From IMG/VR virus record IMGVR_UViG_3300021963_000115, positions 3,487 to 67,486 of that record: 64,000 nucleotides of DNA, one strand, 5' to 3'. The notes beneath the pieces are model-generated. The model did no database searches, had not been told where the DNA came from, and was given only the letters and a program-made list of their open reading frames with translations. Made by a program: the position numbers and the translations under genes. This document shows positions 1,592 through 52,200 of the stretch, piece after piece. This stretch comes from a virus. Numbering within the stretch: position 1 is the stretch's first letter; each line of letters opens with the position of its first letter.

Positions 1592-2571
1592 TTGATTCTC
1601 CTTCCATTTGAATAAAACGGTACGCCTACATCTACTGCCACTTGTTTGAATGGCTTTGTCAGTTGATACAGATACGCACCGCGCAACTTATGCTCAAGTT
1701 TTTCACGGTCAGGGTATGTGATCTGAACCGTGTGGTTGCCCCCGTCCCAAGTGTGCTGAAAGTCAGTATGAGTATGGAACAGCGCTTCAACCATGTTCAT
1801 CCACTTCTCACCATACTCCTCACCATCTTGGCGTACTAACCAATTGGCTTGGTCTAACCTTTCACGCATGTCATGCCTAAAAGACCAAGTTGAGACAAGA
1901 TTCTCATCCGTAGTTACAAACGGACTCATGATCTCGTAGTAATCTAAGAACGGCTTAAGTTCTTGTCGTACCTTCTTCGCCTTCTCAGTATCAATCAACA
2001 ACTTGTGTTCAGCCAAGCCACCAATAACTTCAAAGAATCTCTTGCCATTACTTTCGTACGGTACGAATCTCATGTGCTGTCCGTCTTGGAAGTAATACTT
2101 CTTCGTCCCATCAGGTTGGTCTGCAACGATGTACTGTTTAGCACCGAACCTTGCAAAGCCAAGACCCGTAGGCAACAACGCTCCAAGTGTGTGCCATGTG
2201 ACATAGTTGCTCATCCATTGAGGCGTAAACTCAAACCGCCCATCAGGGTACGCCATGAGCAATGGCTTGTACTCTTTGTAGTAACTTGTGACTGTGGTCT
2301 TGCCTGTCTTTGGATCGCGTTGATGTTGTGTAGGGTACACCATGGCAAACGCCATACCGTATCTGTCACCATCTTTATGCCACACCTCAAATGTGCGATG
2401 ACGGTCAGTCAATGGACGATGATCTGTAATGCCATGCTTTACACGCTGACCCATCAACGGCTTAACACTCTCATACTTCTTCTTGGTTGTTTCATAATCA
2501 TCCATGCGTATGTGATACCCACGGTAGAACGCGAGTGAATATGTTTGGGTTGGTTTTGGAATTGCTTTCAT
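1588..2571 (-). CDS. hypothetical early protein (327 aa)
   Basis: long ORF with AAAGGA SD; contains a palindrome copy at 2052. Confidence 0.8.
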   Translation of the reverse strand: MKAIPKPTQTYSLAFYRGYHIRMDDYETTKKKYESVKPLMGQRVKHGITDHRPLTDRHRTFEVWHKDGDRYGMAFAMVYPTQHQRDPKTGKTTVTSYYKEYKPLLMAYPDGRFEFTPQWMSNYVTWHTLGALLPTGLGFARFGAKQYIVADQPDGTKKYYFQDGQHMRFVPYESNGKRFFEVIGGLAEHKLLIDTEKAKKVRQELKPFLDYYEIMSPFVTTDENLVSTWSFRHDMRERLDQANWLVRQDGEEYGEKWMNMVEALFHTHTDFQHTWDGGNHTVQITYPDREKLEHKLRGAYLYQLTKPFKQVAVDVGVPFYSNGRRIK

Positions 2572-2643
2572 GGTTTTCCTTTCTAAAAAATTAAATGGGA
2601 AGGTTTCGTACTGTACGAAACCACCCTCAGAGATACCTGTAAC

Positions 2644-3825
2644 TCAGTCTACATAGATGACTGCGCCAGTAGTAGGCTTGGGCTTGTACCCACCGACAAC
2701 ACACCACAACACGGGGTGCTCCCACTTGCCCCAACTACCAACATAACCATCGGTCAACACTACAACACACTCGGGCTTGATGCCACGATCCTTGATGTAC
2801 ACGGGGATACACGCAGGATCAGTACCACCGCCACCCGCAGGTTTGGTAGAGCTTGTCAACTTATCTTGCCGATCACGGGCATACACCTCATGACCTGCGA
2901 CCTCTGTGTCCCAATACAACAGATCAACAAGTTCAGGTGAGACATTGGCACAGATAGATTGCACCTCGGTCAGAAACTTATTTAAGTCCTCACCACCGAT
3001 AGAGCCTGATGTGTCAATGGCAATACAGATACGACCCATACTCTCGGACACAGTAGAGGGCATGTACATATCGTGCTGTAACCATCTACGGTTAACGCGT
3101 TGCCATGTGGATATATCCTTACCATCTGCAAGCGATGAGATGAAGTCACGCAACTGTTCACGCCAGTCAACCTTGGGTTCGAGCAATGCACCGATCTCAC
3201 GGGACAAGTTACCACCCATCTTGCCTGCATGTATTTGACCCTGACGGATTGCTTGGTTCACTTCCTTGATGTGATCCTCAATCTCTTGCTGTGTCATGTC
3301 GCCTGTGTCCCAATCATGAGAGTCAAAGCCACCCGCACCTTCGTCACCCTCATCACCACCACTACCCCCACCACCTTGCTTGAGGATATTGAACACTTCC
3401 TGTGAGTCCATGCCACGGAACTTCTCATTGAGTAAGCCCATCTTGGGTAATACAACAAACCCATTCGTTGCCTTCTCAATATCTTTGATGATGAGGTTGA
3501 TCACATAGTCACACGCCATGTTTGCACACTTGGCATGTTCCTCATACAGATGCTTCCACAAGAATGTATGCTGAAACAACTTGTGCAGATTCTCATGCAG
3601 GATCACGCCACGCAACTCACCATCGGGCAGAGATTCAACAAACGCTTTGCCGTAGATACAGTCGATGCCATTGGTACAAGCTGTTGGTACATCTTCGTCA
3701 ACCTTGTACTTGCCTACCATGATGATGGATGCGTACTCCATCGTATGCTTGTGTGCCATTAACTCTACATGGGCACGCTCAATGCGCTTAAGCGCAGATA
3801 AAGATTGTGTTGCTGTTACGAACAT
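2644..3825 (-). CDS. HExxH metallopeptidase-like + vWA domain protein (DUF2201-type)
   Basis: PTACTNG, ILHENLH (HExxH), N.A.D..IN, G/D-rich linker, MIDAS DTSGS, GGGGT, VLTDG. Confidence 0.85.
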   Translation of the reverse strand: MFVTATQSLSALKRIERAHVELMAHKHTMEYASIIMVGKYKVDEDVPTACTNGIDCIYGKAFVESLPDGELRGVILHENLHKLFQHTFLWKHLYEEHAKCANMACDYVINLIIKDIEKATNGFVVLPKMGLLNEKFRGMDSQEVFNILKQGGGGSGGDEGDEGAGGFDSHDWDTGDMTQQEIEDHIKEVNQAIRQGQIHAGKMGGNLSREIGALLEPKVDWREQLRDFISSLADGKDISTWQRVNRRWLQHDMYMPSTVSESMGRICIAIDTSGSIGGEDLNKFLTEVQSICANVSPELVDLLYWDTEVAGHEVYARDRQDKLTSSTKPAGGGGTDPACIPVYIKDRGIKPECVVVLTDGYVGSWGKWEHPVLWCVVGGYKPKPTTGAVIYVD

Positions 3826-3894
3826 AATGATTTCCTTTCATGGTTAAAGATGTTGAGGGTTTCGTACTGTACGAAACCCCCCGGGTTACTGCTA

Positions 3895-4974
3895 TTACTT
3901 ACGAGCAAACAAGTAGTTGTTGTCTGCCGCCCACTTAGCGAACTTGGGATTAGTTGCCGCAACTGTACGCTTGGGACACATATCGGACATGACGCTACGA
4001 GCGAACAAGCCTTGTGCTTCCTTAGACATACGGGGTAAGAACTGCATCCAAGCATCCATAGTGTTCTTCTCAATACGCTGTACTGCCTTGGCAATCAACA
4101 TACAACCCGCAGGGGCAGATGATGGGACAGTCGCTGTATCGGGTGACTTGATGAGATCATCCCAGTTAGTGAGCTGTGTGTCCAACTTCACCATCGTCAA
4201 GATGTTGTGCATTGCCTTCTCACCCACAGTACCCTTCAGGGCATGGCACATCACATCATCACCCAAGATCATGGTGCGCTTGATCACATCAGATGCTGTC
4301 TCTAAAGATCGTGGTGTAACAAACGCCATACGAATATCACGGGGGTCATTGATGTATGTATTCTGACGCGGATCTTCGTAGTCCTCAAACGATGCCAACA
4401 TCTCAGGGAACTCTTGCACAGTAGCAATGATGACTGGATGAAAGCCGTTGTTGATGCCGTACTGCATAACTTCTTCAGCACTAGGCTTGGCAACACGAAC
4501 TTGGATCACACGGTTACGGGCATGTGGTGGCACATTGTCACCGATACCCTCGACCGTCAAGTTGGTAGTCGCAAACAAGACACCCTCCAAGTCCCATATA
4601 CCCAATGAACGCTCTTGCATTAGTTTCAAGCAAGCATTGAGTACACCGCCCTTGGCTTTGCCGATCTCGTCAAGCATCATCACAACCTTCTTACCCTTGA
4701 AGTGCAAGCCGAACTCCTCGTTAGGCACAAAGCGACACACCTCATTGCCGTCAATGTCCTTGATCTTCGGAACCATGAAGTCACCAACATCTTTGGTAGT
4801 GATGTCAACATAGCAGAAATAGTGATCCTTAAACTCAGGCTTGTTGCGTAGCATCTTCAGGATAGATGACTTGCCAATACCCATCTCACCCTGTGCCAAC
4901 ACAGTACGCAGGTCACCAACAGCGGCAATTAAGTCAGCGGTTTGGGACAAAGACAAAGATTTATACATAGACAT
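3895..4974 (-). CDS. MoxR-like AAA+ ATPase
   Basis: Walker A GEMGIGKS, Walker B MMLDE, ATTN, ARNR, TPRS; adjacent to the vWA gene. Confidence 0.85.
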   Translation of the reverse strand: MSMYKSLSLSQTADLIAAVGDLRTVLAQGEMGIGKSSILKMLRNKPEFKDHYFCYVDITTKDVGDFMVPKIKDIDGNEVCRFVPNEEFGLHFKGKKVVMMLDEIGKAKGGVLNACLKLMQERSLGIWDLEGVLFATTNLTVEGIGDNVPPHARNRVIQVRVAKPSAEEVMQYGINNGFHPVIIATVQEFPEMLASFEDYEDPRQNTYINDPRDIRMAFVTPRSLETASDVIKRTMILGDDVMCHALKGTVGEKAMHNILTMVKLDTQLTNWDDLIKSPDTATVPSSAPAGCMLIAKAVQRIEKNTMDAWMQFLPRMSKEAQGLFARSVMSDMCPKRTVAATNPKFAKWAADNNYLFARK

Positions 4975-5075
4975 GATTGATTCCTTTCAAAGAATAAAAA
5001 CAACTAACACAAATAACTAACACACAACAACTTACACAATGAGGGTTTCGTACTGTACGAAACCCCCGACCTAAC

Positions 5076-5945
5076 TCAGAACGCAAACTTATCGAGCATG
5101 GCATCGACCTTGTTCTTGGTCTGCTCACGCAACATATCCGATTCACGCAATGACTGTGCATCTACATGACGCATGGTGTCCTCCAACTCCATACGCATGG
5201 CTTCCAACTTCAGATCACCGCTGATGTTGAAGTGCTTGAGTAACTGACACAACTCAACAGCGTTATCGACAAGCGAGTCACGGAAAATCTTGCGCTTGCC
5301 CTCATCTGTATCTGCAAGACGCTCAGACATGGCAGTCAACACACCATGCAGTCTGTCCCACGCATCACGCATTGCATCATTGAGCCGTGATGACAACACA
5401 CCCTCGTAATGTGTCTGCATCTCACGCAAGCCTTCCTCACCAATATCTACACGGAAGTCACCCGCCATTGGCAATGGTGTAAACGCATAGCGAAAGCCGA
5501 ACTTACTGATGATCTGATCACGGTGCGGATAGTCCTCACGATTGAATAGATCACCCAGTTGGAAAGCCGCGGCGGCAACAAGCGTGTCGTACTCATTGAG
5601 AAAGTTGTTGACAGATGTTGCGAACTGAGTCTCGAACTCGGACAGTCTTGACTTGTAGTCAATGAACGATGCCATGTTCAGCACACGATCACCGTTGTCA
5701 CCCCATGGCTGTGTGACTGTGTAGTGCCATGTACGAATCGCGCTTGCAACCTTGTTGATCTCCTCCAACTTGCCCGAGCCTGCCAACAGATTCTTGTTGT
5801 AGTTGCCCGCCCGAGTCTTGGTTGACTTGGCTTGGTCAACTTCTTCAGACACACGCTTGTCCAACTTGCGCCCTGTCCATACAGACATAGACAGATTGAC
5901 GATCAGGGCAGAGCCTGACAACTTAGATACATTTACTTGTTCCAT
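5076..5945 (-). CDS. DUF3150-like coiled-coil protein
   Basis: W.GRKLD, T.PW, LGDLF...DYP and C-terminal IFRDSLV..LKHFNI pattern of proteins found beside phage AAA/vWA pairs. Confidence 0.65.
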   Translation of the reverse strand: MEQVNVSKLSGSALIVNLSMSVWTGRKLDKRVSEEVDQAKSTKTRAGNYNKNLLAGSGKLEEINKVASAIRTWHYTVTQPWGDNGDRVLNMASFIDYKSRLSEFETQFATSVNNFLNEYDTLVAAAAFQLGDLFNREDYPHRDQIISKFGFRYAFTPLPMAGDFRVDIGEEGLREMQTHYEGVLSSRLNDAMRDAWDRLHGVLTAMSERLADTDEGKRKIFRDSLVDNAVELCQLLKHFNISGDLKLEAMRMELEDTMRHVDAQSLRESDMLREQTKNKVDAMLDKFAF

Positions 5946-6039
5946 GATATTTCCCTTTCATATTTCATTACATTTCAATATGCTTTCGTACTGTACGAAA
6001 CTATATCTACTTACACACAATACTACCTAACCAACCCAT

Positions 6040-6068
6040 ATTATAACAGATTGATACAACCATGTCAA
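6040..6068 (-). promoter_or_regulatory. consensus sigma70 promoter
   Basis: TTGACA (6068-6063), 17-nt spacer, TATAAT (6045-6040). Confidence 0.85.
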
Positions 6069-6072
6069 CCTA

Positions 6073-6255
6073 TTACTTGTTAGCAATATGTTGCTTATAG
6101 TCTTTGATCAAACGCTCACGATCCTCATCATCTTCAAGAAAATGCTGAACGAATCGTTTTGCCATGTGCAACTCCCGCTTGGCGTCGATCAAGAAACCTG
6201 TAACCACAATCGCCCATGCCAATAGCACGAACTCTGTTGCTGTAAATTCAATCAT
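6073..6255 (-). CDS. small membrane protein
   Basis: GGAGG SD; MIEFTATEFVLLAWAIVVTGFLI TM helix. Confidence 0.65.
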   Translation of the reverse strand: MIEFTATEFVLLAWAIVVTGFLIDAKRELHMAKRFVQHFLEDDEDRERLIKDYKQHIANK

Positions 6256-6376
6256 GCTTACCTCCATTAAAGATGTTGCGTAATACCCACCGAGCATCAA
6301 TGCGACTGGCAAACCATTTGCTCAATCGTTGGCACTCGTACCCTTCACACTCATCCTGCAATAACCCGTACGTCAT
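6248..6376 (-). CDS. hypothetical protein (42 aa)
   Basis: GGAGG SD; MTYGLLQDECEGYECQRLSKWFASRIDARW...; fills the gap. Confidence 0.5.
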   Translation of the reverse strand: MTYGLLQDECEGYECQRLSKWFASRIDARWVLRNIFNGGKHD

Positions 6377-6593
6377 TCTTTTCCTCCTGTTCTGTCCATT
6401 CCATAAAAGCTAACAACTCTTCAAAGTTGTAGCAGAACCTACCCTTCATGTCGTAGAACCGCCATGTGTCACAGTTCGCACACCCTGCTTCGTACGAACG
6501 GCATCGCTTGGATTGACTGGCACGCAGAAACTTAAAGCCATGCTCAACCACATACTTAGACTTGGCACGCTTGCGTATGTCTCTCACTTTCAT
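6351..6593 (-). CDS. hypothetical Cys-containing protein
   Basis: AAGGAG SD; MKVRDIRK...C..Y..GC.NC.TW. Confidence 0.6.
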   Translation of the reverse strand: MKVRDIRKRAKSKYVVEHGFKFLRASQSKRCRSYEAGCANCDTWRFYDMKGRFCYNFEELLAFMEWTEQEEKNDVRVIAG

Positions 6594-6772
6594 TTGATTT
6601 CTCCTTCTTCCAAATACAGCGCTGTGTCGTGCCAAAGTTGTGTGTCCTCGGGTGTCCCATTTATCTCAGCGATAAATGCCTTAGCCTTCGCTTCATCCGT
6701 AAACACAGCACCGTGTGGGTGTCCTTCGTAGTACGGGTCGTCACACGGACGGCAAATAATCCAACATTTCAT
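6590..6772 (-). CDS. hypothetical protein
   Basis: AAGGAG SD, coupled stop/start. Confidence 0.6.
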   Translation of the reverse strand: MKCWIICRPCDDPYYEGHPHGAVFTDEAKAKAFIAEINGTPEDTQLWHDTALYLEEGEIK

Positions 6773-7005
6773 ATATCACTCCTTAAATTCTTTTGGTTTG
6801 TTTGTGTCAGGGTACGCTTTGCCGCATCAGATGTGACGAACATATACCCGCCCTTGCCATACTCTTGCACCACCGTCCACGACTTGCGCTCTATTCGTGC
6901 GGCTTCCTCACCGCAGAACAAGCACAACTTGTAGCCTCGTTGCCACCGTTCAATGTGTATGTCATCACCACACTCACGGCACTCTCTCCAATCAGAATGG
7001 AACAT
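6769..7005 (-). CDS. C4 zinc-finger protein (DksA/TraR-type finger)
   Basis: CRECGDDIHIERW..GY.LCLFC; GAGGAG SD. Confidence 0.65.
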   Translation of the reverse strand: MFHSDWRECRECGDDIHIERWQRGYKLCLFCGEEAARIERKSWTVVQEYGKGGYMFVTSDAAKRTLTQTNQKNLRSDI

Positions 7006-7363
7006 CTTGCATCTCCTCATTAACTTTCGTACTGTACGAAATCAAACCAACCGATCCATACATCTGCACAGTCTGCATATCCTCCAAGCACAATGGTATG
7101 GTTGGTACGCATGGATGTAACTGCGTCTTGTGCTTAGATGTTGTACGGCTGTACTTGGTGCTGTTCTCGTACCATGTGTCCGACAATGGCTCGTACACAA
7201 ACAATGGGAAGTTGTAGCGATACGAATACACCACATACCGTTTCACAATATCTGCGCCCACGCCCTGTTCGTACCACTCACTCCAAATGTTCGAACCCTT
7301 GAACACTTCTAACTTGCGCACATACTCCCGTGCTTTGCCATTGGCAATGTACTTTGCACTCAT
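6992..7363 (-). CDS. hypothetical protein (alternative start 7420)
   Basis: AAAGGAG SD; YVVYSY...PL.....W.....YS.TTSKH. Confidence 0.7.
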   Translation of the reverse strand: MSAKYIANGKAREYVRKLEVFKGSNIWSEWYEQGVGADIVKRYVVYSYRYNFPLFVYEPLSDTWYENSTKYSRTTSKHKTQLHPCVPTIPLCLEDMQTVQMYGSVGLISYSTKVNEEMQDVPF

Positions 7364-7422
7364 GTAATCTCCTTTTCTAAAACTTGTTACTACAAATAAT
7401 CTCTGCCCTGATTCGCTCATAC

Positions 7423-7653
7423 TTATTTACTTTCGTACGGTACGAAACGATTTGCTTCCCACGATGCCACATTACGTTCCCGCAAGTGGTGCTTGTACAA
7501 CTCACTACTAACCTTAGTGAATTCATCATGCCCATACTTGCGCATCATTGCCGTTACACAATCCACGGCAAACCGTGAATTAAAAAACGCCACCCTGTCA
7601 TACACCATCAGGGCGGCAATGAAGTCCGTCAACTCGTAATCTGATTTAGTCAT
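7423..7653 (-). CDS. hypothetical protein
   Basis: coupled ORF with AAAGGA SD. Confidence 0.6.
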   Translation of the reverse strand: MTKSDYELTDFIAALMVYDRVAFFNSRFAVDCVTAMMRKYGHDEFTKVSSELYKHHLRERNVASWEANRFVPYESK

Positions 7654-7913
7654 TTGATTAGTCCTTTCTCATACATTTGTTTAAGCATTGATGAATGGAT
7701 AACTGAGTACCCTAACTTCGCACCTTGCTCGTTCATCCAATGGGCTTCACCCTCCACCGACAGATCAAACTCCCCTTCTCTGTAACAGCAATGGGTTACT
7801 GCGGTTGTGTATGTCATGCCTGAGTCAAACCAAAATCCATCAGGTGCAACGCACCCATAGAAGTTGTCGGTCGAGTGCATCCGATTAAATTCTTTCCATG
7901 TTTTCATTTCCAT
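7650..7913 (-). CDS. hypothetical protein
   Basis: coupled ORF with AAGGTG SD. Confidence 0.6.
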   Translation of the reverse strand: MEMKTWKEFNRMHSTDNFYGCVAPDGFWFDSGMTYTTAVTHCCYREGEFDLSVEGEAHWMNEQGAKLGYSVIHSSMLKQMYEKGLIK

Positions 7914-8086
7914 TCACCTTTCATTAACTTCTGTTCGTCACGTCTAGCAACTTTCAACGCTTTCGTACGGTACGAATCTGTCTTGACATTATTCTGTCGG
8001 TCAGAAGTTGTATCCGTAACAAAGCCACACCACAACATCTTGTCACGATGTTTGTTATTGATTAGCTTGCGCTCCAGTTTGTTCAT
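7904..8086 (-). CDS. hypothetical protein
   Basis: GAAAGGA SD. Confidence 0.55.
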   Translation of the reverse strand: MNKLERKLINNKHRDKMLWCGFVTDTTSDRQNNVKTDSYRTKALKVARRDEQKLMKGEWK

Positions 8087-8098
8087 GATGAAGTCCTT

Positions 8099-8353
8099 TC
8101 AGGTTGTAAATTCGTACACGATGCCCACATCAGCGGTATTTACAGAAAACCGCTTTGCTTGCTTAACTTCGTTGGCGATGCGCTCAAGATAGTCTGGGTA
8201 CTTTTTGCGTTCGTATTCACCCAAACTCACATCATTGGCAATGATGCGCTCACATTCAGCATCGGTGTATGCAATAACAAGTTGCACACCACCATACTCA
8301 GACGATGGAAAGGGTTTCCAATAGTCCACGATGTAAAGGGTCGGAGTTTTCAT
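8099..8353 (-). CDS. hypothetical protein, first ORF of the early operon
   Basis: GAAAGGACTTCATC-ATG; MKTPTLYIVDYWKPFPSSEYGG. Confidence 0.7.
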   Translation of the reverse strand: MKTPTLYIVDYWKPFPSSEYGGVQLVIAYTDAECERIIANDVSLGEYERKKYPDYLERIANEVKQAKRFSVNTADVGIVYEFTT

Positions 8354-8369
8354 GATGAAGTCCTTTCGG

Positions 8370-9105
8370 TTGGTTGATTGAATAGTGGTCATGACGCCAC
8401 CGCATAGCACACGGTCAAGTGTGCTACACGCTATCGTCTCTGCGGTTACCCGCTGTCGTATTTGGTAGTTCTCTTTGTTTGGTTTGGCGTTACTAACTGC
8501 GATAGTGTTTGTCGTTGCCACATCTCCCATTCGTACGGTACGAACGGCTTGGCTTCCTAGTGGTTGTTGGTATGTGTTCGGTCGGTGTTCTAAGGTGTGC
8601 TATCGGTTTCCCGTAGACTTATCACCCATGATCAAAGTGTATTGAACATGACTCTCACATACATACTCCACATTAGGGCTGTTGCGTCATTAGCGCAGAG
8701 CAACCCACACATTTAGGCAGTATCTACATTAGCTTGCACTTCGCTATCGTTAAGTTGTATTAGGGGTTGACGCACGCCTATCCTAAATTTAAACAACCAA
8801 CTACACCACAAAATGCCCCGACTGACTACGGGACGCCTATTCACGCATGGAAGGTATCGGGGGTTGATCTGACTTGCGTCTATGTGTCGTGGGCTTCGCA
8901 ATCCATCCTACACATAACAACCTGTCCACCTGTGAGCTTCTATCATCAAGACAGCGGCGGTTTAATTTACTGCGGTTACCTCAACTTTCGTACAGTACGA
9001 AAGCCAAAGATGCGTGCAGAGTGTTTATGCAAATTTTTAAAGAGCGTGTGGTTTACCACCACTTTCGTACAGTACGAAAGCGTCATACGGAAATGTTCCG
9101 AATGA
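8370..9105 (-). ncRNA. candidate long structured untranslated leader / ncRNA
   Basis: downstream of a perfect promoter, no SD-led ORF, nested long-range complementarities and many hairpins. Confidence 0.45.
9031..9046 (-). promoter_or_regulatory. boxA antitermination element
   Basis: CGCTCTTTAAAAATTT, near-identical to rrn boxA GCTCTTTAACAATTT, preceded by a GTGG-TAAA-CCAC hairpin. Confidence 0.65.
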
Positions 9106-9111
9106 GCCTTA

Positions 9112-9140
9112 ATTATACTAGGTTTACGCTACCTTGTCAA
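9112..9140 (-). promoter_or_regulatory. consensus sigma70 promoter (major early promoter)
   Basis: TTGACA (9140-9135), 17 nt, TATAAT (9117-9112). Confidence 0.85.
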
Positions 9141-9190
9141 GCTGTTACTAGTTAGGAAAAGGGGGTTATGTGGGGTGTTAAATCTATTTA

Positions 9191-9507
9191 ATTCTGCAAT
9201 ATTCTAGAGGGGAGAATAAAGCTAAGTTGTTGATTCGTAAGGCTTTTTTGATGGTTTTTTTTGTTTTATTCTATTATTCTCGGTTTTTGGGGTTATGCGA
9301 GCAAATAAGCAAAGAGAGATCGAGAGTGCAAGAATCTATGCAAAAACATCTGTGTGCATACACATGAAGATATGCAAATGTGCAAAATAAAATTGGGGTG
9401 TATATATATATTTTTAAAGAATAATAGAATAATAGGGGGGAAAACTCTCGCAAGTGCTTGATTTCATTGGGTTTTATATTATTCCCGTGCAGAGAATATT
9501 GCAGAAT
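9191..9507. repeat. nested inverted repeats with two IHF consensus sites (origin/packaging-like element)
   Basis: 15-bp IR 9191-9205/9493-9507; 15-bp IR 9266-9280/9418-9432; WATCAANNNNTTR on minus strand at 9223-9235 and 9451-9463; central TA run. Confidence 0.7.
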
Positions 9508-9575
9508 AATTAGCGAGTAATACGGCATCGTATCAGCTTTACATTTCGTACAGTACGAAAGTTCTAAGTTTCAGC

Positions 9576-9795
9576 ACGACCCACAATAAGGTTACAGGTT
9601 TCGTACGGTACGAAAGTCAAGATGGCACAAGTAGTAGTATCTGTAACACAACATAGTGATATGTAGTACGACCCACAGTAAGGTTACAGGTTTCTGTTAT
9701 GTTTCGTACGGTACGAAAGGTTGAGGGGTGTTGTGCGCCCCACGATGCGTGTACTGCCCACATCTTGTACGGCACGCAATGAGGTTACAGGTTTC
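9576..9795. repeat. three direct repeats with core AGGTTACAGGTTTC
   Basis: ACGACCCACARTAAGGTTACAGGTTTC at 9576 and 9668; core again at 9782. Confidence 0.85.
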
Positions 9796-9831
9796 AAAGG
9801 CACGGCTGAACCATGCCTAAAGATTTTGGAC

Positions 9832-9865
9832 AAAAAAAAGCCCCAACCTTTCGGTCAGGGCTTTT
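9832..9865 (-). terminator. intrinsic terminator
   Basis: GCCCTGACC-GAAA-GGTTGGGGC followed by T8 on the minus strand, just after the 9877 stop. Confidence 0.8.
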
Positions 9866-9876
9866 GGGGCTGAGGT

Positions 9877-10383
9877 TTATTTCAGCTTGATGCCTTCGGC
9901 TTCAAGATAAGACTTGATGCCTTCGAGCAAGGTTTCGAAGTCAGCATTTTCATAACCCGACTGTAAGTCATTGATGAAGCCTTCGAAGTCAGCATCGCGG
10001 TAAACTGTTGCCAGCTTGTCCGCAAACTCTTTTTTACCTTTGGCGGCTTTGGCGGCGCCGCCTTTGGCTTTGGCACGTTGCAGATTCCAGTCGGTGACTG
10101 GCTTGCCAGTTGCAACCGCTTGCTTGAAAGTAGGCAAGTAGGTTTTCTGCGCTGTGCTCTGGGTTAAACCAGACGCCATGCAACCATCAACAAAGGCGGT
10201 GGCTAAACCGCATCCAGTACCATCTTTTTTGTAGATACCAACCTTTGCCTTAGCTTCGAAAAGCTTTGCAATGTTCACATTAGCCGATTCGCGCAAAGCA
10301 TTTGCCTTGCCTTCGAGTTCGTTAATTGCACCAACAGCGACGCCAACTTGTTGCGCCAAGGATGTAAGGGAAAGTGTGCTCAT
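9877..10383 (-). CDS. monocistronic hypothetical protein (168 aa) with a K/A-rich linker
   Basis: GAAAGGAAACATC-ATG; own terminator. Confidence 0.8.
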   Translation of the reverse strand: MSTLSLTSLAQQVGVAVGAINELEGKANALRESANVNIAKLFEAKAKVGIYKKDGTGCGLATAFVDGCMASGLTQSTAQKTYLPTFKQAVATGKPVTDWNLQRAKAKGGAAKAAKGKKEFADKLATVYRDADFEGFINDLQSGYENADFETLLEGIKSYLEAEGIKLK

Positions 10384-10835
10384 GATGTTTCCTTTCGTAG
10401 AGCAATCGGGGAAACGACTGTTTCGCAACCGACAACTGAACTGTAACCGAATCAGTATAGTTTGCACGGGATAGCCCTACCCTGACATGATTTTCGTACA
10501 GTACGAAAGCTCGACCCCCCACCACCAAGATATAGGGAATGGTTCCATGGCGCGTATGTGTACTGAGTTTTGCACGTTACATCACCACTTTTTAAATCAC
10601 CCAGTTGTTTTGGCCACCATATATTTGTCACGCTACGAATTTCGTTTGTAGATAACACACCACAACATCTTAAGGGGGGTACCCCCATACGAAAACGTCG
10701 GTACTTATTGACAAGTACCGACACAAAAACACCCCCCGGTAAGGGGACCCAAAAAGGTAGTCGTAAAAATTTTTTGCATTCTGTAAATTTTGGTGGTACA
10801 GTCCGCTTCATTCCCGTTAACTTCGGTGCAAAAAT

Positions 10836-11471
10836 TTGGACGCGATTCTTGTTACACCAGAATTAAATGTACCCCCGCCATCTAAGATGACAAGCGAGGA
10901 GATTCACGACCTTCGTGAACGGGCGCAGCGTCTCTTTAATACAGTAGAGTTCTTGGAAGCCAACGGCTTGGATGTAGCTAACATTCAAGTTTCAAGTGAA
11001 GACCGAAAAGACGTGCATGCTGTATTTAATGACAGCCCCGCTGCCGATCCCAAAACCATTAATAGCCCTGCAAAAGCACTGCTGCTGCAGTCACTGCTTA
11101 ATGAATACGACATAGACGTTGTAAGAAACGCACAGCAGTTGCGCTCATATATAAAGCTCAGACTTCTGGAGCTCAGTGCATCGAATCAAGAGAAGACCCA
11201 GCTCAAGGCGTTGGACATGCTGGGCAAGCTGTCGGACGTTGGGGCGTTTGTTGAACGGATTGAGGTCAATGTGACACACCGCACCACAGAAGATCTTGAG
11301 AATGATCTGGCCAAAAAGCTGTCTGCTTATATGAGTGACATCATTGATGTGGACAGTAAAGACATTCCAGATAAATATGACCCGCTTCCAACAGCGCCAG
11401 CGGTTGAGGTGATAGATCTGGACGCCGAGTTGGGCGATATTATTCTGGACGACGGGCACATTGATGAGTGA
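10836..11471 (+). CDS. terminase small subunit (putative)
   Basis: immediately upstream of TerL; helical LKALDMLGK..DVG.F motif; start uncertain (TTG). Confidence 0.65.
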   Translation: MDAILVTPELNVPPPSKMTSEEIHDLRERAQRLFNTVEFLEANGLDVANIQVSSEDRKDVHAVFNDSPAADPKTINSPAKALLLQSLLNEYDIDVVRNAQQLRSYIKLRLLELSASNQEKTQLKALDMLGKLSDVGAFVERIEVNVTHRTTEDLENDLAKKLSAYMSDIIDVDSKDIPDKYDPLPTAPAVEVIDLDAELGDIILDDGHIDE

Positions 11472-46247: not shown

Positions 46248-49200
46248 ATGATTATCAACCTGCCTAAACTTGGAGACGTAGAGTTTCCAGATAACGTCAC
46301 GCCTGAACAGCTGAATGGATTATTGGGCAGGTTGGCTGATAAATACGACTTCACCCTGCCAAAACCAGAGGCAAGTTTAGGCACGATTGCAAAGCGCGGG
46401 TTCATGCGCTCACTGGGAGAAACAGGTATCGCTCTGGGCGATCTGGCTCCCGCAATGCTCAACCAGTTTATCGGTGGTGATAAAGCGTACACCGAGCGCC
46501 AGATGGGTGAAGCGCAGAAGACCCGTGAAGAACTCCAACAGAAATATCCCACACGTTTTCGTTCGTATAAAAATATTGACAGCCCATTCCAAGCCATTGA
46601 GTACGGCGCAGAGACGCTAGGTGAGTTACTGCCCAGTGCCGCTACTACCATAATCCCCGGCGCAGGTGCGGGAATAATCGGTGGCAGAATGGCGGCACGC
46701 AGTGCAATGGGAGCGGCCTTGGAAGCAGGCCCACTATCCCGTGCGGGAATGATGGCGGCAGAGACTGCCGCTAAACAAGCTGGTCAAGTTGCAGGTCGCC
46801 GTGCGATGTACGCTGGCAGTTATCTGGGTTCGTTTGCGCAAAACGCACCCGAAGTCTTTGAGAGTATTTACCAAGAAACTGGCAAGTTTGAGCCGGGAAT
46901 TGCCGCCCTTGCAGGGGGTATCAGTTCTGTGTTGGACTCTATTGTTCCAACTAAAGTCATGGATCAGCTTGGCACATACGGCAAGCTAAAGCTCGTTGAA
47001 AAGTTGGCTAAAGAATCGGGTGCGGCCCCCAATGTGTGGAAACGTATTGGCGTTGATGCCGCTAAGACTGCGGCTACTGAAGGTTTGACTGAATCCGCGC
47101 AAGAGTCAATTAGTGCGTATGCAGAACAAGTTGCGGGCAGTGCCAAGGATGTACTAGACCCTGAGAATATCCAACGATACAAAGAAGCGTTTGTTAAAGG
47201 TGCTGTTGGCGGTGCAGGTTTTGCCGTGCCCCAAGCTGTATCTCAATACCGCACAATCAAACGTGACCAGTTCACAACCAAAGAAGCACAAGATGCGTTG
47301 GCTCAACAAGAACAGCTTGCGCAACAGCAAGCACAACAGCCAACAGCTATGCAACAGCAGGTTATGGGCGCTGTGCAGCCACAGCCCGGTGTTCCTCGCA
47401 CGCAGGAAGAACTTGAGCAAGCCTTTAGATACACGCAAGAAGAATTAGGCATCCTACAAAAACGTATGGATGCGGCTCGCCCCGGCTCACAGGCGTATGC
47501 CGAACTCGATTCCGCTATCAAAGCCAAACAAACTGAAGCTGACAAGATCAGCCAAGAGAAGGCTAAAGCAAGTGCGTTTGGTGCCGCCACACCAAACGAG
47601 CAGGGTCTATACACCGCACAGCAACCAGTTGATGCTGTCACTATTAAATCATTAGGGGTTAACCCTACATCCAAAGCCGCCCAATCTTTGCTGGGGCTTA
47701 ACTTAAACACGCCTGAAGGTGTTGCTACATTAGTACAGACACTTGAAGACCCCGGTTTTAGGGGTAATGTTAATGAAGCCGCTTACAACACCCTTATTTC
47801 TACACTTGACCCCACCGCAGTTGCGGAGGCTAGAAAAAGCTTCACAGGAGCGCCCAATGTTGCAAGACCTAACGCCCCAACAGGTGGAACGAGCACTAGA
47901 GTGGTTAGCCAGCCCAGTGGTGGACAGCCCGCCGCAGGAGCTACTACATCTCAACCAGATGGAGTGGTTTCTACTGGACAGAATGTTGACCAGTCTGCTG
48001 GAAGAGAAGGACAGTCAGCCGCTCCAGTAGAGGGTGAACTCGACCCACTATTTAAATATGCGGTGTCTTTGATCCAGACTGGTACTGAGCCTACACCCAA
48101 CGCCCTTGCAAAAGAACTTGGCGTTGACCAAGAACGTGCTTTAGAGATTTTGGCGTACATGGAATCTGAGGGCATGTTTGATGAGATTGCCAAACAACAG
48201 GCAATCGAACAAGGTAACGCAGTTGACGCAGGTAAGCGTAAACCGCCAGCCAAGCAACCGCCCGTAGGTACAGTCAAAACAATTAACATACCGCAAGAAG
48301 TTGTAGAGACCGAAGATCAAAAGGCAGCCACATCTGACAAAGAAAAGGTCTACCGTCTTGCTGATATAAAGAAGCCTACCAAACAGGAAAAAGCCGCCCG
48401 TGCATATTTCGGGCGTATGGAGTTTGGTTTGGCGCTTCGCTCTATTGCCAACGACTTGGCGCTTCAGCCTAGCCCATACCGCAATTCAAAGATGAAGACC
48501 TTTGAAGCGCACCCTGAAGGTCCTGAAGCATATTTTGCATCTGAAGACGAAGCTCAAATGCACCTTGGGCAGGGCGGTGTACATGCGCGTGATGCGTCTG
48601 ACTGGGTACGTAACAACCTGTCGGCAAAGAACGTTGCCTACATGGACAAAGAAGCCAAAAACTGGGCTTCAAGAAACGTTACGGCTTCACGGTTCTTAAA
48701 GAAATTAGACAAACAACAAAAGCAAAAAGCTAACGTAAAGACGCAAGTTAAAGAAGAAGCACAAGCCGCTAAAGAAGCAGGTGAGTACGCTCCCACTTTG
48801 GAAGAATTGGCAGAATCCAAATCCACGGATACTTTGGCTAAGAAACGCAAGAGAGAATTGGAAAGCCTTGCGCGGGAGTTGGAGAACGATGTCTATGGTG
48901 GGATGGACTTAGAAGCATCTCAAGATATTGCCGCTTTGTTTGTAGAAGCACACCCCGTCGTGCTTGACCTTCTGCGACGTGGGCATCTTAACCTTGCGCT
49001 GCGCTCGTTGTCTGAAACCGCTTCGTCTGAATTTGTTGGTAAGACAGCTGGAGCTTTGGCTAAGATTACAGGCAACACCAAACTTGTGTATGGTGCGGCT
49101 AAGTCTAAGTTTGATCCCACGACCAATACCGTCTACTTGCGTGAAGATGCAACCGACTACGAAATCCTGCACGAAATGTCTCATGCGGGTCTGTCGCATA

Positions 49201-52200
49201 CCATCTCCAACCCATCGCATCCAGTTACAAAACAACTGAACCAAATTTTTACGCAAATCAAAAATGATATTGACGGCGCGTATGGTGCGAAGAACTTACA
49301 GGAATTTGTTGCAGAGGCTTGGAGTAACGAAGACTTCCGGGGCCACCTGAAAGAGAAGTACGCCCCCGGAAACAAAATGTCCGTATGGGACAAGATCATG
49401 AACGTCCTACGTCGCATGATTGGCTACCCTCCCAAGGCGCAAGAGTCTGTGCTTGATAACATAGACCGCATGCTAAACCAAATCGCAAGTCCTGCGCCTG
49501 ATGTACGCAAGGGTGATTCACTGTATGCACAGGCTATTCATAGCCCCAACATGGCTCAAAAAGTTATGGGGAGAGTAGACGACATAATCCAGCAGCAGCA
49601 GGTTATGACACCTGAGCGTGCCGCTGAGTGGGTGGGTAAAGCCGAGAACATGGGCATCAGTTTCCGCGCCACCCTGCAGAGATTCTTAAACCTCTCAGCG
49701 TTGGGACAAGTTGGTAGTAAGTACCTTGGGCGTGATGCAATTACGTTTTCTGATAAGGTTAACGAGATGGCAGGTTACTACGAGAACTTGATGAATAAAC
49801 TCAAGCCTCTGGTTGACCGTGAAGAAGCCTTTGCAAAAACTGACCGCTATCAGTTTTGGTCAACTCTTGTAAACGACTCCACCGTTGAGGATGTGAACCC
49901 TGCCGCACCACGTAAAAACTACGAAGGTTCTCCAGAGAAGCTGGCCGCATGGGATCAGTTGTTCAAGCGCTACAACACGTTGACGGATACAGAGAAGAAG
50001 CTGTACAACGACCACTTTGGTGCGTTCAAAGAAATGTTCAAAGAACTGAAAGCTTCTATTAGAGGCAGTTTGAACCAGACTTTCCGCAATGAAGATGGCT
50101 CGCCCGACAATGATCGCATCTCGTCTGCCTATGAGAAGATCATGGACAAGATCACTAAGATGGGTATTGATCATTACTCGCCCCTGTACCGTCATGGTAG
50201 CTTTTGGTTAGTCTACACAGACAAAAATACCAATCAGTCCGTATCAAAACTGTTTGAAAGCCAAGCAGAGCGAAGACTCGAGCGTGAGAAGTTGGAAGCC
50301 GAGGGACATACTGGCTTTGATGAACCCGTGCGTATGGATCAGATGAAATCCAAATCTGTTCCACGTGGAACAGTTGCCGCAGATATTGTGAAGATTATGA
50401 AAGACGGTAACGCGGATGAAAAGGCTATTGATGCCTTTTACCAACTTATTGTCAGCGCACTGCCAGAGACCAGCGTGCTCAAGTCATTCCAAAAACGTAA
50501 GAACACCCCCGGTTATATTGATGATGCGGCATTGGCGTTTACCAACGTCACGAGCAACATGGCGCGTCAGTTGTCCCGCATGAAATACAACGAGGAACTC
50601 AAAGGCTTGGTTGATAAGATGCGTGCAACTGTGGCAGAGAGCCGTGGTAAAAACGCATTGCGCGGCTCAGACATTGTGAAAGAACTTGAAGCGCGTCATG
50701 AGTTTGCAATGAACCCCACCCTGTCCGACATATCGCGCTATGCGAGTGCAGGGGCGTTCTACTTTAACTTGGCGGGTAACGTCTCATCTGCCGTAGTTAA
50801 CTTAGTACAAACCCCAATGGCGACTTACCCCCAACTTGGTGGTGTGTATGGCTACTTAGAGGCAGGTAGAGCATTGATTGCGGCTACTAAACTGTATGGA
50901 TCATCAGGGTTAACCCGTGTAGTCACTGACATTAACGGTCAGCAGTCCACAGAAAAAGCCATGCTGTCTATTGAGAACCTTGTCAATGCAGGCAAAGCCC
51001 CGCAGTACAAAGCGCTTGTACAGCGTTTGAATGAACTGGGCTTCTTGCAAAACACAACAATGCGTGAGGCACTGGAAGCAAGTAACCGCGGAGAGATCAA
51101 CAAGGGTAAATCCTCAGACTTGATGAACAAGGTTACTCAAACTTCTACGTTCTTGTTCCACCATGCCGAGCGTGCTAACCGTGAAGTTTCTGCGATTGCC
51201 ACGTACGACTTGGAGATGCAGAAGCTGAAGAACAACAAGCAGATGAACGACGAGCAGAAGCAAGCGCAGGCAATTGAAAAAGCAGTGCGCATGTTGGAGT
51301 TCTCGCACGGTGCAAGCCACACAGAATCCGCCCCCAGTATTGGTCACAGCGACATTGGTAAGATTTTGACCGTGTTTAAGCGTTTCGGCTTCACCATGTA
51401 CTACATGTTGTTTGACACCATACGCAGATCACTCCCAATAGCAGGTGCCACTGGTAAAGAACTTGAGGGTATTAAAGCCGCACGTCGCCAGTTGGTCGGT
51501 ACATATGGCATGGCAGGAATCTTTGCAGGTGCAAAGGGTTTACCCTTGTACTGGGTTGCTGAGTTGGCGTACAACGCATTGAACGATGATGACGAAGATG
51601 ACTTCGATGCTGTCATGCGTAAGTATCTTGGTGAGCTTGTGTACAAAGGTCCGGTCAACTACTTCACCAACTTGGGCATTGCTGATCGTGTGGGTTGGAC
51701 TGATCTGATTTACCGTGAAAACAAAGGCGACAAAGCCGATGCGAGTGCTTTGAGCCAATTTGTAGAAAGCGTATTGGGTGCGCCATACTCTGTGGTTAAC
51801 AGTTTGTATCGTGCAAAAGAGTTGGCGTCTGAAGGACATACAGAACGCGCTATCGAGGCGGCACTGCCTATTGGCCTGCGCAACATCCTCAAAGGTAGAC
51901 GCTACTACTTTGAAGGTGCAAACACATTACGTGGTGACCCAGTGATGGGTGAAATCAACGGATACAACGCGGCTATGCAAGTGATGGGATTTGCTCCTGC
52001 TGACTTGATGGCGCAGTACGAAGAAAACGCATACGCCAAACAAAAGGGCGACACCATTAGCGGCATGGAGAAGAAGTACCTTAAACAGTATTACATCGCC
52101 GAGCGCATGGGGGACTATGAACGTGCTGATGAGTTGCGTCAGAAGTTGTATGACTTGGGCGACAAGTACCCTGAGTTAAAAATTACTGAATCCACGATTA

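What the first reader, a model, noticed from the sequence alone, without database searches (positions are those of the whole stretch)
8370..9105. ~740-nt untranslated, apparently multi-domain RNA driven by the main early promoter
Seen: between the predicted TSS (~9105) and the first SD-led ORF (8353) there is no convincing gene. Mutually nested long-range complements exist: 8450-8457/8950-8957 (8 bp), 8562-8576/8911-8922 (bulged), 8609-8616/8826-8833 (8 bp) and 8711-8717/8782-8788 (7 bp). Local hairpins occur at 8405-8426, 8627-8650, 8676-8706, 8881-8916 and 9083-9105; some of these compete with the long-range helices. An 11-nt direct repeat GGTAACCGCAG (8440-8450, 8970-8980) flanks the outer helix, and three palindrome copies fall inside. 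Established: phages carry large structured ncRNAs (GOLLD, ROOL classes) and RNA antiterminators (HK022 put). Inference: an undescribed large ncRNA or antitermination leader. The helices are short, so covariation evidence is needed.
Basis: partly seen in the sequence, partly recalled or inferred. Interest (0 to 1): 0.7.

Follow-up and report, generated by a model that had tools for sequence, protein, structure and literature searches.

The report
New large structured phage leader RNA
The roughly 750 untranslated bases behind this phage's strongest early promoter encode a large, intricately folded RNA that is conserved in dozens of uncultured aquatic phages, matches no described RNA family, and has no known function.

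Summary
The region is real and non-coding. A 12-of-12 sigma-70 promoter (9140-9112, minus strand) precedes 752 nt (9105-8354) that end at the Shine-Dalgarno/ATG of the first early ORF.

Homologous leaders were found in 35 viral-contig stretches, 86 of 105 metagenome stretches and 1 of 8 genome-contig stretches.

A consensus fold of about 20 helices, including long-range ones, is strongly supported. On 28 sequences, 90.7% of cells pair against 28-44% for slid controls, and 47 of 79 pairs show compensatory changes. It holds on 54 sequences and in a covariance-model alignment of the core.

Substitutions show no codon periodicity, whereas the downstream ORF does. G.U outnumbers A.C by 193 to 39, which fixes the strand.

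There is no Rfam match and no match in deposited phages.

Two of its local hairpins coincide with conserved helices P18 and P10/P11.

Verdict: a new family of large structured phage RNA. Its function is inferred only, as either a free-standing RNA or a cis-acting leader.

The parts
9112..9140 (-). Sigma-70 promoter: -35 TTGACA, 17-nt spacer, -10 TATAAT
   Evidence: It matches 12 of 12 positions. A promoter of the same form sits directly upstream of the homologous RNA in 35 of 38 loci checked by pattern.
8354..9105 (-). The structured non-coding RNA / leader, 752 nt, from the predicted 5' end to the base before the first ORF's ATG
   Evidence: Homologues. Covariation. No codon periodicity. No Rfam match.
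9083..9104 (-). 5'-terminal hairpin; its sequence varies between relatives
   Evidence: Folding the first 45 nt gives a hairpin in the window and many relatives but not in all.
9039..9043 (-). Invariant UCUUU within GCUCUUUAA. Candidate P1 5' strand, complementary to the Shine-Dalgarno AAAGG at 8362-8366.
   Evidence: The 5 pairs are canonical in 23 or 24 of 25-26 sequences each. Only one-sided changes are seen and there is no compensatory proof.
8956..8959 (-). P2 5' strand (CGCC), pairing with 8834-8837 (GGCG). This helix closes domain I.
   Evidence: 28 of 28 sequences are canonical at all 4 pairs. One pair is C-G in 26 and U-A in 2.
8940..8954 (-). P2a hairpin (8954-8950 with 8944-8940)
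   Evidence: The two outer pairs are invariant and the inner pairs vary in sequence. On 54 sequences it is 83% paired, with 34 double-change cells.
8933..8937 (-). P3 5' strand, pairing with 8843-8847
   Evidence: 87.9% paired, and 2 of 5 pairs show compensatory changes. The window itself has one U.C mismatch.
8816..8833 (-). P5 hairpin (8833-8829 with 8820-8816) carrying the invariant 8-nt loop UAGUCAGU
   Evidence: The three central pairs have four, four and two pair types and no broken cell in 28 sequences. In the 58-sequence covariance-model alignment the helix is 97% paired.
8737..8815 (-). P6 (8815-8808 with 8744-8737), enclosing the P7/P8 arm. In the window and L043 this arm is replaced by a longer variant stem-loop.
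   Evidence: P6 is 91% paired and 4 of 8 pairs are compensatory. P8 is 95% paired in the sequences that have it. The window's letters do not fit consensus P7/P8.
8717..8721 (-). P9 5' strand (ACUGC), pairing about 220 nt away with 8496-8500 (GCAGU). This helix closes domain III.
   Evidence: The four core pairs are canonical in 26 of 26 sequences. One pair is C-G in 18 and G-C in 8; another is G-C in 22 and A-U in 4.
8676..8706 (-). P10 (8706-8701 with 8681-8676) and the inner hairpin P11 (8697-8694 with 8686-8683).
   Evidence: P10 is 90.5% and P11 88.1% paired, both with compensatory pairs.
8560..8671 (-). P12 (8671-8668 with 8563-8560), enclosing P13 (8662-8656 with 8576-8570) and P14 (8652-8644 with 8590-8581)
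   Evidence: P12 is 94.7% and P13 88.8% paired, with compensatory changes. P14 and P15 lie in poorly aligned variable sequence and are weaker.
8517..8553 (-). P16 (8553-8550 with 8520-8517) and P17 (8547-8546 with 8528-8527). In the window the tip of P17 is extended by the palindrome at 8530-8544.
   Evidence: All 4 pairs of P16 show compensatory changes. Relatives cap P17 with a short loop or with their own palindrome.
8404..8427 (-). P18 hairpin, 11 bp in the consensus.
   Evidence: 88% paired with 7 of 11 pairs compensatory on 28 sequences. On 54 sequences it is 94.8% paired.
8385..8400 (-). P19 hairpin (GUGG...CCAC in the window)
   Evidence: Read from the window sequence. Family support is weaker: 78% paired on the 54-sequence alignment, in a poorly aligned region.
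8351..8367 (-). Shine-Dalgarno (AAAGGA, 8366-8361) and ATG (8353-8351) of the first early ORF
   Evidence: The 27 relatives that reach this point were cut at the column of the window's ATG, and there 26 of 27 show ATG, most of them behind a purine-rich stretch, although the first genes differ.
9064..9078 (.). Palindrome copy TTCGTAC-N-GTACGAA. Further copies inside the RNA lie at 8987-9001 and 8530-8544.
   Evidence: Relatives carry their own variants of the palindrome at other variable positions in the RNA.

Best explanation
SHOWN:
- The minus strand from about 9105 to 8354 encodes a member of a previously undescribed family of large structured non-coding RNAs. Full-length relatives run 482-843 nt; this copy is 752 nt.
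- It has a conserved multi-domain fold:
  - a variable 5' part with hairpins;
  - domain I, closed by P2;
  - domain II (P5-P8), with an invariant 8-nt loop;
  - domain III, closed by the long-range helix P9 and containing P10-P17;
  - a 3' pair of hairpins, P18 and P19.
- The most conserved nucleotides lie in loops and junctions.

INFERRED:
- The RNA works as a folded RNA particle in its own right. It would be made first and abundantly on infection and would act on a host or phage macromolecule. This is how the other large phage-borne RNAs (GOLLD, ROOL, the ICP1 800-nt RNA) are thought of.
- It is unlikely to regulate one particular downstream gene, because the first gene behind it differs between relatives.
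- My odds: the family and fold are real, about 0.95. Given that, free-standing function about 0.5, cis-acting leader function about 0.35, and something else about 0.15. The confidence given for this explanation (0.5) is for the whole statement, inferred function included.
For: - Homologues with conserved blocks were found by protein-anchored and motif scans. An nhmmer profile confirmed 87 of the 113 later loci. Twenty-eight, then 54, non-redundant sequences were aligned.
- Covariation on 28 sequences: 79 pairs are 90.7% paired against 28.3-44.1% when partners are slid. 47 pairs and 227 cells have changes on both sides, against 17-25 pairs and 33-50 cells. 0 of 500 shuffles reach any measure.
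- The same helices hold on 54 sequences, 33 of them loci from the metagenome scan that were not used to derive the fold. There, 95 pairs are 88.6% paired against 31-43%, with 578 double-change cells against 57-111.
- A covariance model of the core hits 83 of 100 metagenome loci, giving 58 distinct sequences. These are 94.4% paired, with 228 double-change cells against 15-33 for slid controls.
- Strand: 193 G.U cells against 39 A.C cells.
- Non-coding: substitutions show no phase bias in 15 of 15 pairs (p 0.35-0.99), and most indels are not multiples of 3. The adjacent ORF shows a third-position excess (p 0.0012 and 4.6e-5).
- The promoter is conserved in 35 of 38 loci.
- The first ORF differs between relatives. 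In L009 and L011 the 84-aa gene is absent and the RNA abuts the next gene.
- No Rfam family matches.
- Weak hint of expression: near-identical contigs from 4 metatranscriptome runs of 4 studies lie inside 8486-9085, accounting for 7 of 11 laid pieces.
Against: - No experiment shows a discrete RNA, its ends or its level. The metatranscriptome runs were chosen with this very stretch, hold contigs only, and may contain DNA.
- There is no terminator or recognisable processing site between the RNA and the first ORF. As encoded, it is therefore a 5' leader, which fits a cis role at least as well as a free-standing one.
- An invariant UCUUU can pair with the first ORF's Shine-Dalgarno.
- Thermodynamic stability is unremarkable for domains I-II, with z = 0.1.
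- The fold was derived from the same family on which it was first counted. MAFFT alignments of the variable arms (P7, P14, P15, P19) are poor, and those helices are only 68-81% paired.
- No partner, target or catalytic activity can be named.
Confidence: 0.5

Rival explanations
1. The RNA is a cis-acting leader that conditions expression of the early operon. It could modify or protect the transcribing RNA polymerase (put-like antitermination, or shielding a long untranslated stretch from Rho). It could protect the 5' end from decay. Or it could gate translation of the first ORF by pairing the invariant UCUUU (9043-9039) with the Shine-Dalgarno (8366-8362).
For: - The RNA lies between a consensus promoter and the first ORF. 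At the aligned end, 26 of 27 relatives show ATG, and the scan of the window found no convincing terminator in between.
- The five P1 pairs are canonical in 23 or 24 of 25-26 sequences each.
- The window and many relatives have a hairpin at the extreme 5' end.
- A/C-rich, G-poor stretches lie near 8460-8519 and 8540-8619.
Against: - From recall, known cis elements of this kind are 70-300 nt. A 500-800-nt multi-domain fold with invariant junctions is far more than any of them needs.
- No convincing intrinsic terminator was found in the operon downstream of 8350 for it to overcome.
- P1 shows only one-sided changes, and any Shine-Dalgarno is complementary to a UCUUU-like motif.
- The first gene varies between relatives.
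Confidence: 0.3
2. The region is tiled by small translated ORFs, or is an N-terminal extension of the 84-aa protein (the 143-aa frame 8530-8099), and its conservation is protein-level.
For: - Sense-strand ORFs exist: 143 aa from ATG 8530 in frame with the 84-aa ORF, 62 aa at 8901-8713, and 36 aa at 9086-8976.
- Nucleotide similarity to relatives extends about 220 nt upstream of ATG 8353.
Against: - There is no codon-phase bias in 15 of 15 sequence pairs, and 149 of 177 indels are not multiples of 3 (summed). The neighbouring ORF shows clear third-position bias.
- ORF positions and frames differ from relative to relative.
- In L005 the frame corresponding to 8530 is closed by a stop, as read from alignment A1.
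- Long blocks are invariant at every position, and the variable positions covary as base pairs.
Confidence: 0.02
3. The conserved element acts as DNA. It would be an origin, packaging site or array of protein-binding sites, and the pairing reflects cruciforms or single-stranded DNA.
For: - Palindromes that look like protein-binding sites lie in the region.
- An origin-like region with nested inverted repeats and 100-bp-spaced direct repeats lies just upstream, at 9190-9800.
Against: - Pairing is strand-specific: 193 G.U cells against 39 A.C cells. G.U pairs would be A.C mismatches on the other strand or in a cruciform.
- The element starts at a conserved promoter, in the transcribed orientation, in 35 of 38 loci.
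- The palindromes are not the conserved part. Their positions and sequences differ between relatives.
Confidence: 0.03
4. The region is an ordinary long 5' UTR whose complementarities are chance, with phage-specific palindromes scattered through it.
For:
- The whole-region folding z-score is modest.
Against: Conservation across at least 54 distinct sequences, with hundreds of compensatory changes in a common fold.
Confidence: 0.01

Closest known systems
GOLLD and ROOL RNAs (large 'ornate' RNAs, often phage- or prophage-borne)
   Same: - They are in the same size class, several hundred nucleotides.
- They are carried by phages and have a multi-domain fold supported by covariation. Conserved junction and loop nucleotides are, from recall, another shared trait.
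- Their function is unknown.
- GOLLD accumulates during lytic growth (passages of PMC7567579 citing Harris and Breaker 2018; abstract of PMC12286853).
   Different: - No sequence or structure match to either Rfam model, in the window or in 8 relatives' loci.
- This RNA is not near tRNA genes; the window has none.
- Whether it forms RNA-only multimers like GOLLD and ROOL is untested.
The roughly 800-nt most-abundant non-coding transcript of Vibrio phage ICP1
   Same: It is a large non-coding transcript of a lytic phage from an ORF-less gap of about 1 kb, compared by its authors to GOLLD/ROOL, with unknown role (passages read in PMC7567579).
   Different: - The deposited-phage collection, which I assume holds ICP1 but did not check, gave no blastn match.
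- The ICP1 transcript lies between late/lysis genes, not behind the main early promoter.
- In the passages I read, no conserved structure is reported for it.
put RNA of phage HK022 (cis-acting antitermination RNA; details recalled, not from a call)
   Same: It is a structured RNA encoded immediately downstream of early promoters. It acts without being translated and affects the same transcript's downstream genes.
   Different: - put is about 70 nt with two stem-loops. This RNA is 500-800 nt with about 20 helices.
- No downstream intrinsic terminators were found here.
- Antitermination activity is untested.
Candidate structured RNAs ('csRNAs', DNAVirus_X) predicted from IMG/VR intergenic regions (PMC10690425)
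   Same: They come from the same kind of data (uncultured viral contigs) and the same criterion (covariation). Single hairpins or domains of this RNA may be among them.
   Different: All 8,495 DNA-virus candidates there are 29-151 bases long (section 2.1 read). The roughly 700-nt RNA as a whole is therefore not described there. The lists are in supplements I could not open, so overlap of fragments is unknown.

Membership tests
GOLLD RNA (Rfam) | Match to the family covariance model at or near its gathering score | tested here: not met
   cmscan with permissive filters found no GOLLD match at E up to 10 on window 7000-11000. None was found at E up to 1 on 8 relatives' loci.
GOLLD / ROOL RNA | Frequent placement next to tRNA genes in phages or prophages (stated in PMC7567579) | tested here: not met
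   ARAGORN finds 0 tRNA genes in the 64-kb window.
ROOL RNA (Rfam) | Match to the family covariance model | tested here: not met
   No ROOL match.
Any Rfam 15 family (riboswitches, T-box, leaders, ribozymes, introns, OLE, HEARO and so on) | Match to a curated covariance model | tested here: not met
   In one search the only overlapping matches were mir-239 (19 bits against a gathering score of 49) and a nematode snoRNA (18.4 against 50), which are noise. In one search none of the 9 weak matches lies inside a leader.
Large structured non-coding RNA (generic kind) | Conserved secondary structure supported by compensatory changes in many independent sequences | tested here: met
Large structured non-coding RNA (generic kind) | Not protein-coding | tested here: met
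   No codon periodicity, and indels that are not multiples of 3. The positive control on the adjacent ORF shows periodicity.
Large structured non-coding RNA (generic kind) | Exists as a transcript | tested here: inconclusive
   A consensus promoter is conserved upstream. Contigs from 4 RNA libraries overlap it, but the runs were chosen with this stretch and may hold DNA.
put-type cis antitermination RNA | Short two-stem-loop element just downstream of an early promoter (recalled) | tested here: not met
   The position fits. The element, however, is 752 nt with about 20 helices.
put-type cis antitermination RNA | Makes RNA polymerase read through downstream terminators | not testable with these tools
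   The only available check was a pattern scan. It found no convincing intrinsic terminator downstream of 8350 on the minus strand.

The most novel reading that the evidence does not exclude
This is a new class of giant phage RNA machine. It would be the first product of infection: a roughly 700-nt RNA with a ribozyme-like conserved core. It would either assemble into an RNA-only particle or bind and disable a host factor (RNA polymerase, Rho, the ribosome or a defence system). That would make host takeover in this phage clade RNA-based rather than protein-based.
Probability: 0.25. Interest if true: 0.9.

Novelty: new variant of a known kind. Interest (0 to 1): 0.8.

Why it matters
- Only a handful of bacterial or phage RNAs of this size and complexity are known, such as GOLLD, ROOL, OLE, HEARO and raiA. 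Each has proved biologically or structurally surprising.
- This RNA has dozens of diverse natural sequences, a well-constrained fold and a defined promoter. It also has a fixed place at the very start of the transcript behind the phage's strongest promoter.
- It can therefore be tested directly: express it from its own sigma-70 promoter, probe it, image it, and ask whether it acts in cis or in trans.
- It is common in freshwater, estuarine and riverine metagenomes. It may therefore be a general feature of infection by an abundant but uncultured phage group.

Tried and rejected
- Structure-aware MAFFT (Q-INS-i) was not installed, so I used E-INS-i, the covariance model and anchored counts.
I dropped it and gave helix positions as numbers instead.
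- A literature search for the invariant loop motif returned 389 unrelated papers, mostly primers. One literature query was rejected for its wording and was not repeated.
- A table of sense-strand ORFs of at least 25 codons was uninformative, because random ORFs with ATG/GTG/TTG starts cover almost everything.
- Metatranscriptome contigs cannot show ends, strand or level. Parts without cover mean nothing, and the three pieces starting near 8486-8490 include one that simply continues into a relative's insertion, so I claim no processing site.
- The 83-aa C4 zinc-ribbon protein looked DksA/TraR-like by eye. The profile matches are far below threshold: PF01258 at E 4.1 and NF008243 at E 0.063.
- I looked by eye for a partner of the invariant P5 loop. 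Short complements exist in two conserved blocks but do not hold across the family, so I claim no pseudoknot.
- A rut-like (Rho-loading) reading of the A/C-rich stretches rests only on a moderate C>G skew in the window.
- The covariance model of the core found nothing in the four deposited phages with the closest terminase: DSL-LC04, 023Pt_psg01, and Pelagibacter phages HTVC027P and HTVC023P.
- Seven of the 8 motif matches in bacterial and archaeal genomes were chance.

Full report
**What is in the window**

The window is most of a 67.5-kb uncultured virus record. It has a terminase, portal, family-A DNA polymerase, helicase and primase. Its closest terminases are in uncultured aquatic phages and in Pelagibacter phages, at 49-58% identity.

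On the minus strand a perfect TTGACA-17-TATAAT promoter lies at 9140-9112. The next Shine-Dalgarno-led ORF starts at 8353 (84 aa, PHROG 21741 of unknown function). Between them are 752 nt.

The sense-strand ORFs in this stretch are:
- a 143-aa frame from 8530 that runs into the 84-aa ORF;
- a 62-aa TTG frame;
- a 36-aa frame.

Three copies of the palindrome TTCGTAC-N-GTACGAA lie inside the stretch, out of 16 in the window and 0 in 100 shuffles.

All four long-range complements are present in the window. Across relatives, however, their 35 pairs are 51.6% paired against 50.0% in shuffles. Slid controls give 31-38%, and there is no covariation.

About four perfect 8-mer complements are expected by chance in 750 nt, by my arithmetic. 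Folding energy is only modestly better than shuffles:
- z = -1.69 with 20 shuffles;
- z = -2.5 with 100 shuffles for the whole RNA, and 0.1, -2.4 and -3.0 for its parts.

**Relatives**

- A scan with the 84-aa protein gave four loci. Their upstream regions align with the window in blocks and show visibly compensating stems.
- Scans with invariant motifs gave 12, 12 and 35 stretches in viral contigs, 8 in genome contigs and 105 in metagenome contigs.
- An nhmmer profile confirmed 38 of the first loci and 87 of the 113 later ones. That is 86 of 105 metagenome stretches and 1 of 8 genome-contig stretches. The one genome-contig hit is a 4.4-kb contig binned with a Rhodobacteraceae MAG.
- In 35 of 38 loci a TTGAC(A/T)-17-TAnnnT-type promoter lies directly upstream.
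- After removing duplicates there were 28 sequences (none at 93% identity or more over more than 400 nt), and later 54 (none at 96% identity or more).
- Lengths from promoter to first ATG are 482-843 nt for the complete ones.
- Deposited phage genomes hold nothing similar by blastn.
- A covariance model of the core finds one copy in this genome. It finds none in the four deposited phages with the closest terminase.

**The fold**

I derived helices from RNAalifold on MAFFT alignments and from my own covariation scan. I then fixed them by position on a typical member.

On the 28-sequence alignment A3, the counting tool gave the following for 79 pairs in 20 helices:
- 90.7% of cells pair, against 78.3% in shuffles and 28.3-44.1% for slid partners.
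- 47 pairs and 227 cells change on both sides, against 17-25 pairs and 33-50 cells for slid partners.
- 0 of 500 shuffles reach any of the five measures.

Individual helices stand out:
- P5 has four, four and two pair types in its three central pairs, with no broken cell.
- The long-range P9 spans about 220 nt. Its four core pairs are 26 of 26 canonical, with C-G in 18 and G-C in 8 at one pair, and G-C in 22 and A-U in 4 at another.
- P2 spans about 120 nt and is 28 of 28 canonical, with two U-A exchanges.
- All four pairs of P16 covary.

Two caveats apply. The structure was derived from these sequences. The variable arms (P7, P14, P15, P19) are poorly aligned and weaker.

As a partial answer, the same positions were counted on a 54-sequence alignment. 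Of its 54 sequences, 33 are loci from the metagenome scan that played no part in deriving the fold. There, 95 pairs are 88.6% paired against 31-43%, with 578 double-change cells against 57-111.

A covariance model of the core (P5-P8) hit 83 of 100 metagenome loci. Its alignment of 58 distinct sequences is 94.4% paired, with 228 double-change cells against 15-33 for slid controls. That alignment is fitted to the model and so leans towards it.

In window coordinates the helices are listed under 'parts'.

In the window and in L043 the P7/P8 arm is replaced by a longer stem-loop.

From recall, not from a tool: the AGUA / GAA pattern flanking P8 resembles a sarcin-ricin (loop E) module. Several variable hairpins are capped by GNRA-type loops.

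**RNA, not protein and not DNA**

- Substitutions between 15 pairs of relatives show no phase bias (p 0.35-0.99), and most indels are not multiples of three.
- The adjacent 84-aa ORF shows the expected third-position excess (p 0.0012 and 4.6e-5).
- Among paired cells, G.U outnumbers A.C by 193 to 39. The pairing is therefore on the minus-strand transcript, not on the opposite strand or in a cruciform.

**Is it known?**

- Rfam 15 gave only noise on the window and nothing inside the leaders of eight relatives.
- A 2023 screen of IMG/VR intergenic regions reports 8,495 DNA-virus candidates of 29-151 bases (PMC10690425, section 2.1 read). Fragments of this RNA could be in its supplements, which I could not open, but the whole RNA is not described there.
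- Searches for large phage RNAs returned the GOLLD/ROOL/OLE cryo-EM paper (PMC12286853, abstract seen) and the ICP1 transcriptome paper. The latter reports an unexplained, most-abundant ncRNA of about 800 nt (PMC7567579, passages read).
- I found no description of this family in those searches.

**How it may work**

What is shown is the promoter, the non-coding nature, the fold and the family. The rest is inference.

Three points argue for a free-standing function:
- The size, the number of helices and the invariant junction and loop nucleotides go far beyond known cis elements.
- The gene behind the RNA differs between relatives. In L009 and L011 the 84-aa ORF is missing altogether, bounded in the window by a duplicated 17-mer that holds the SD and ATG.
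- Other phages carry large RNAs of unknown role.

Three points argue for a cis role:
- As encoded, it is a leader with no terminator before the first ORF.
- An invariant UCUUU can pair with the Shine-Dalgarno in 23 or 24 of 25-26 sequences per pair, though without compensatory proof.
- The window and many relatives start with a 5' hairpin.

No convincing intrinsic terminator lies downstream for an antiterminator to overcome.

Contigs from four RNA libraries of four studies overlap 8486-9085. Within the stretch used to find those runs (8100-9300), they do not overlap the flanking ORF or the promoter-upstream DNA. The choice of runs biases this, and DNA carry-over is possible.

**Context**

- The downstream genes are small proteins of unknown function.
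- The most widely co-occurring is an 83-aa C4 zinc-ribbon protein, found in 26 loci; 31 of the 54 loci have at least 1.5 kb downstream. Its profile matches to DksA/TraR are sub-threshold.
- The palindromes belong to a clade-wide pattern, TTC-NN-AC-N-GT-NN-GAA, with phage-specific centres. The pattern is present in 86 of 162 loci held, often in 5-14 copies.
- Inside the RNA, the copies I traced sit in variable segments. The one in P17 extends the tip of that hairpin.

**Verdict**

This is a real, conserved, large structured RNA of a new family.

Noticed in passing
window 2053-10507 and 62863-62877; relatives' loci: The 15-19-bp palindrome (C)TTTCGTAC-N-GTACGAAA(G) occurs 16 times in the window, mostly between the genes of this leftward block and around the promoter region. 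Relatives use their own versions, such as TTCATAC-N-GTATGAA and TTCCCAC-N-GTGGGAA. The general form TTC-NN-AC-N-GT-NN-GAA is found in 86 of 162 loci, often in 5-14 copies. Sameness within a phage and difference between phages suggests a co-evolving sequence-specific binding protein, acting on DNA or RNA.
   Followed up: partly
window 9190-9800: The 700-bp AT-rich gap upstream of the promoter holds two nested perfect 15-nt inverted repeats: 9191-9205 with 9493-9507, and 9266-9280 with 9418-9432. Both are centred near 9349. It also holds three 30-nt direct repeats about 100 bp apart (9573, 9665, 9766), each ending in a palindrome copy. It looks like an origin or a regulatory hub.
   Followed up: no
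window 6040-6068 (minus strand): A second 12-of-12 sigma-70 promoter, with a TG extension, lies upstream of the 289-aa gene (5076-5945). A palindrome copy sits in its short leader.
   Followed up: no
window 8084-8367: The 84-aa ORF is bracketed by the same 17-mer (Shine-Dalgarno to ATG) at 8367-8351 and 8100-8084. The ORF is missing as a unit in L009 and L011, like a cassette gained or lost by recombination between the repeats.
   Followed up: partly
window 6769-7020 (minus strand): An 83-aa protein with a CxxC-17-CxxC zinc ribbon is the downstream gene that most widely accompanies the RNA. It is found in 26 loci; 31 of the 54 loci have at least 1.5 kb downstream. Matches to DksA/TraR profiles are far below threshold.
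   Followed up: partly
window 9836-9865 (minus strand): A strong intrinsic terminator (13-bp stem followed by a T run) ends the 168-aa gene upstream of the AT-rich gap. It explains the weak Rfam 'sar'-like and similar matches there.
   Followed up: no
window 46248-52313 (plus strand): A 2021-aa protein has a C-terminal 700 aa that match the ends of giant phage proteins, among them a PHROG annotated 'DarB-like antirestriction' (E 1.7e-75). Pfam gives nothing significant.
   Followed up: no
L028 and L030 (between P19 and the next gene): Two distant relatives carry an extra stretch behind the RNA that begins with its own AAAGGA...ATG, where other relatives go straight to the first gene. It looks like an extra small ORF, but I did not translate it.
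   Followed up: no
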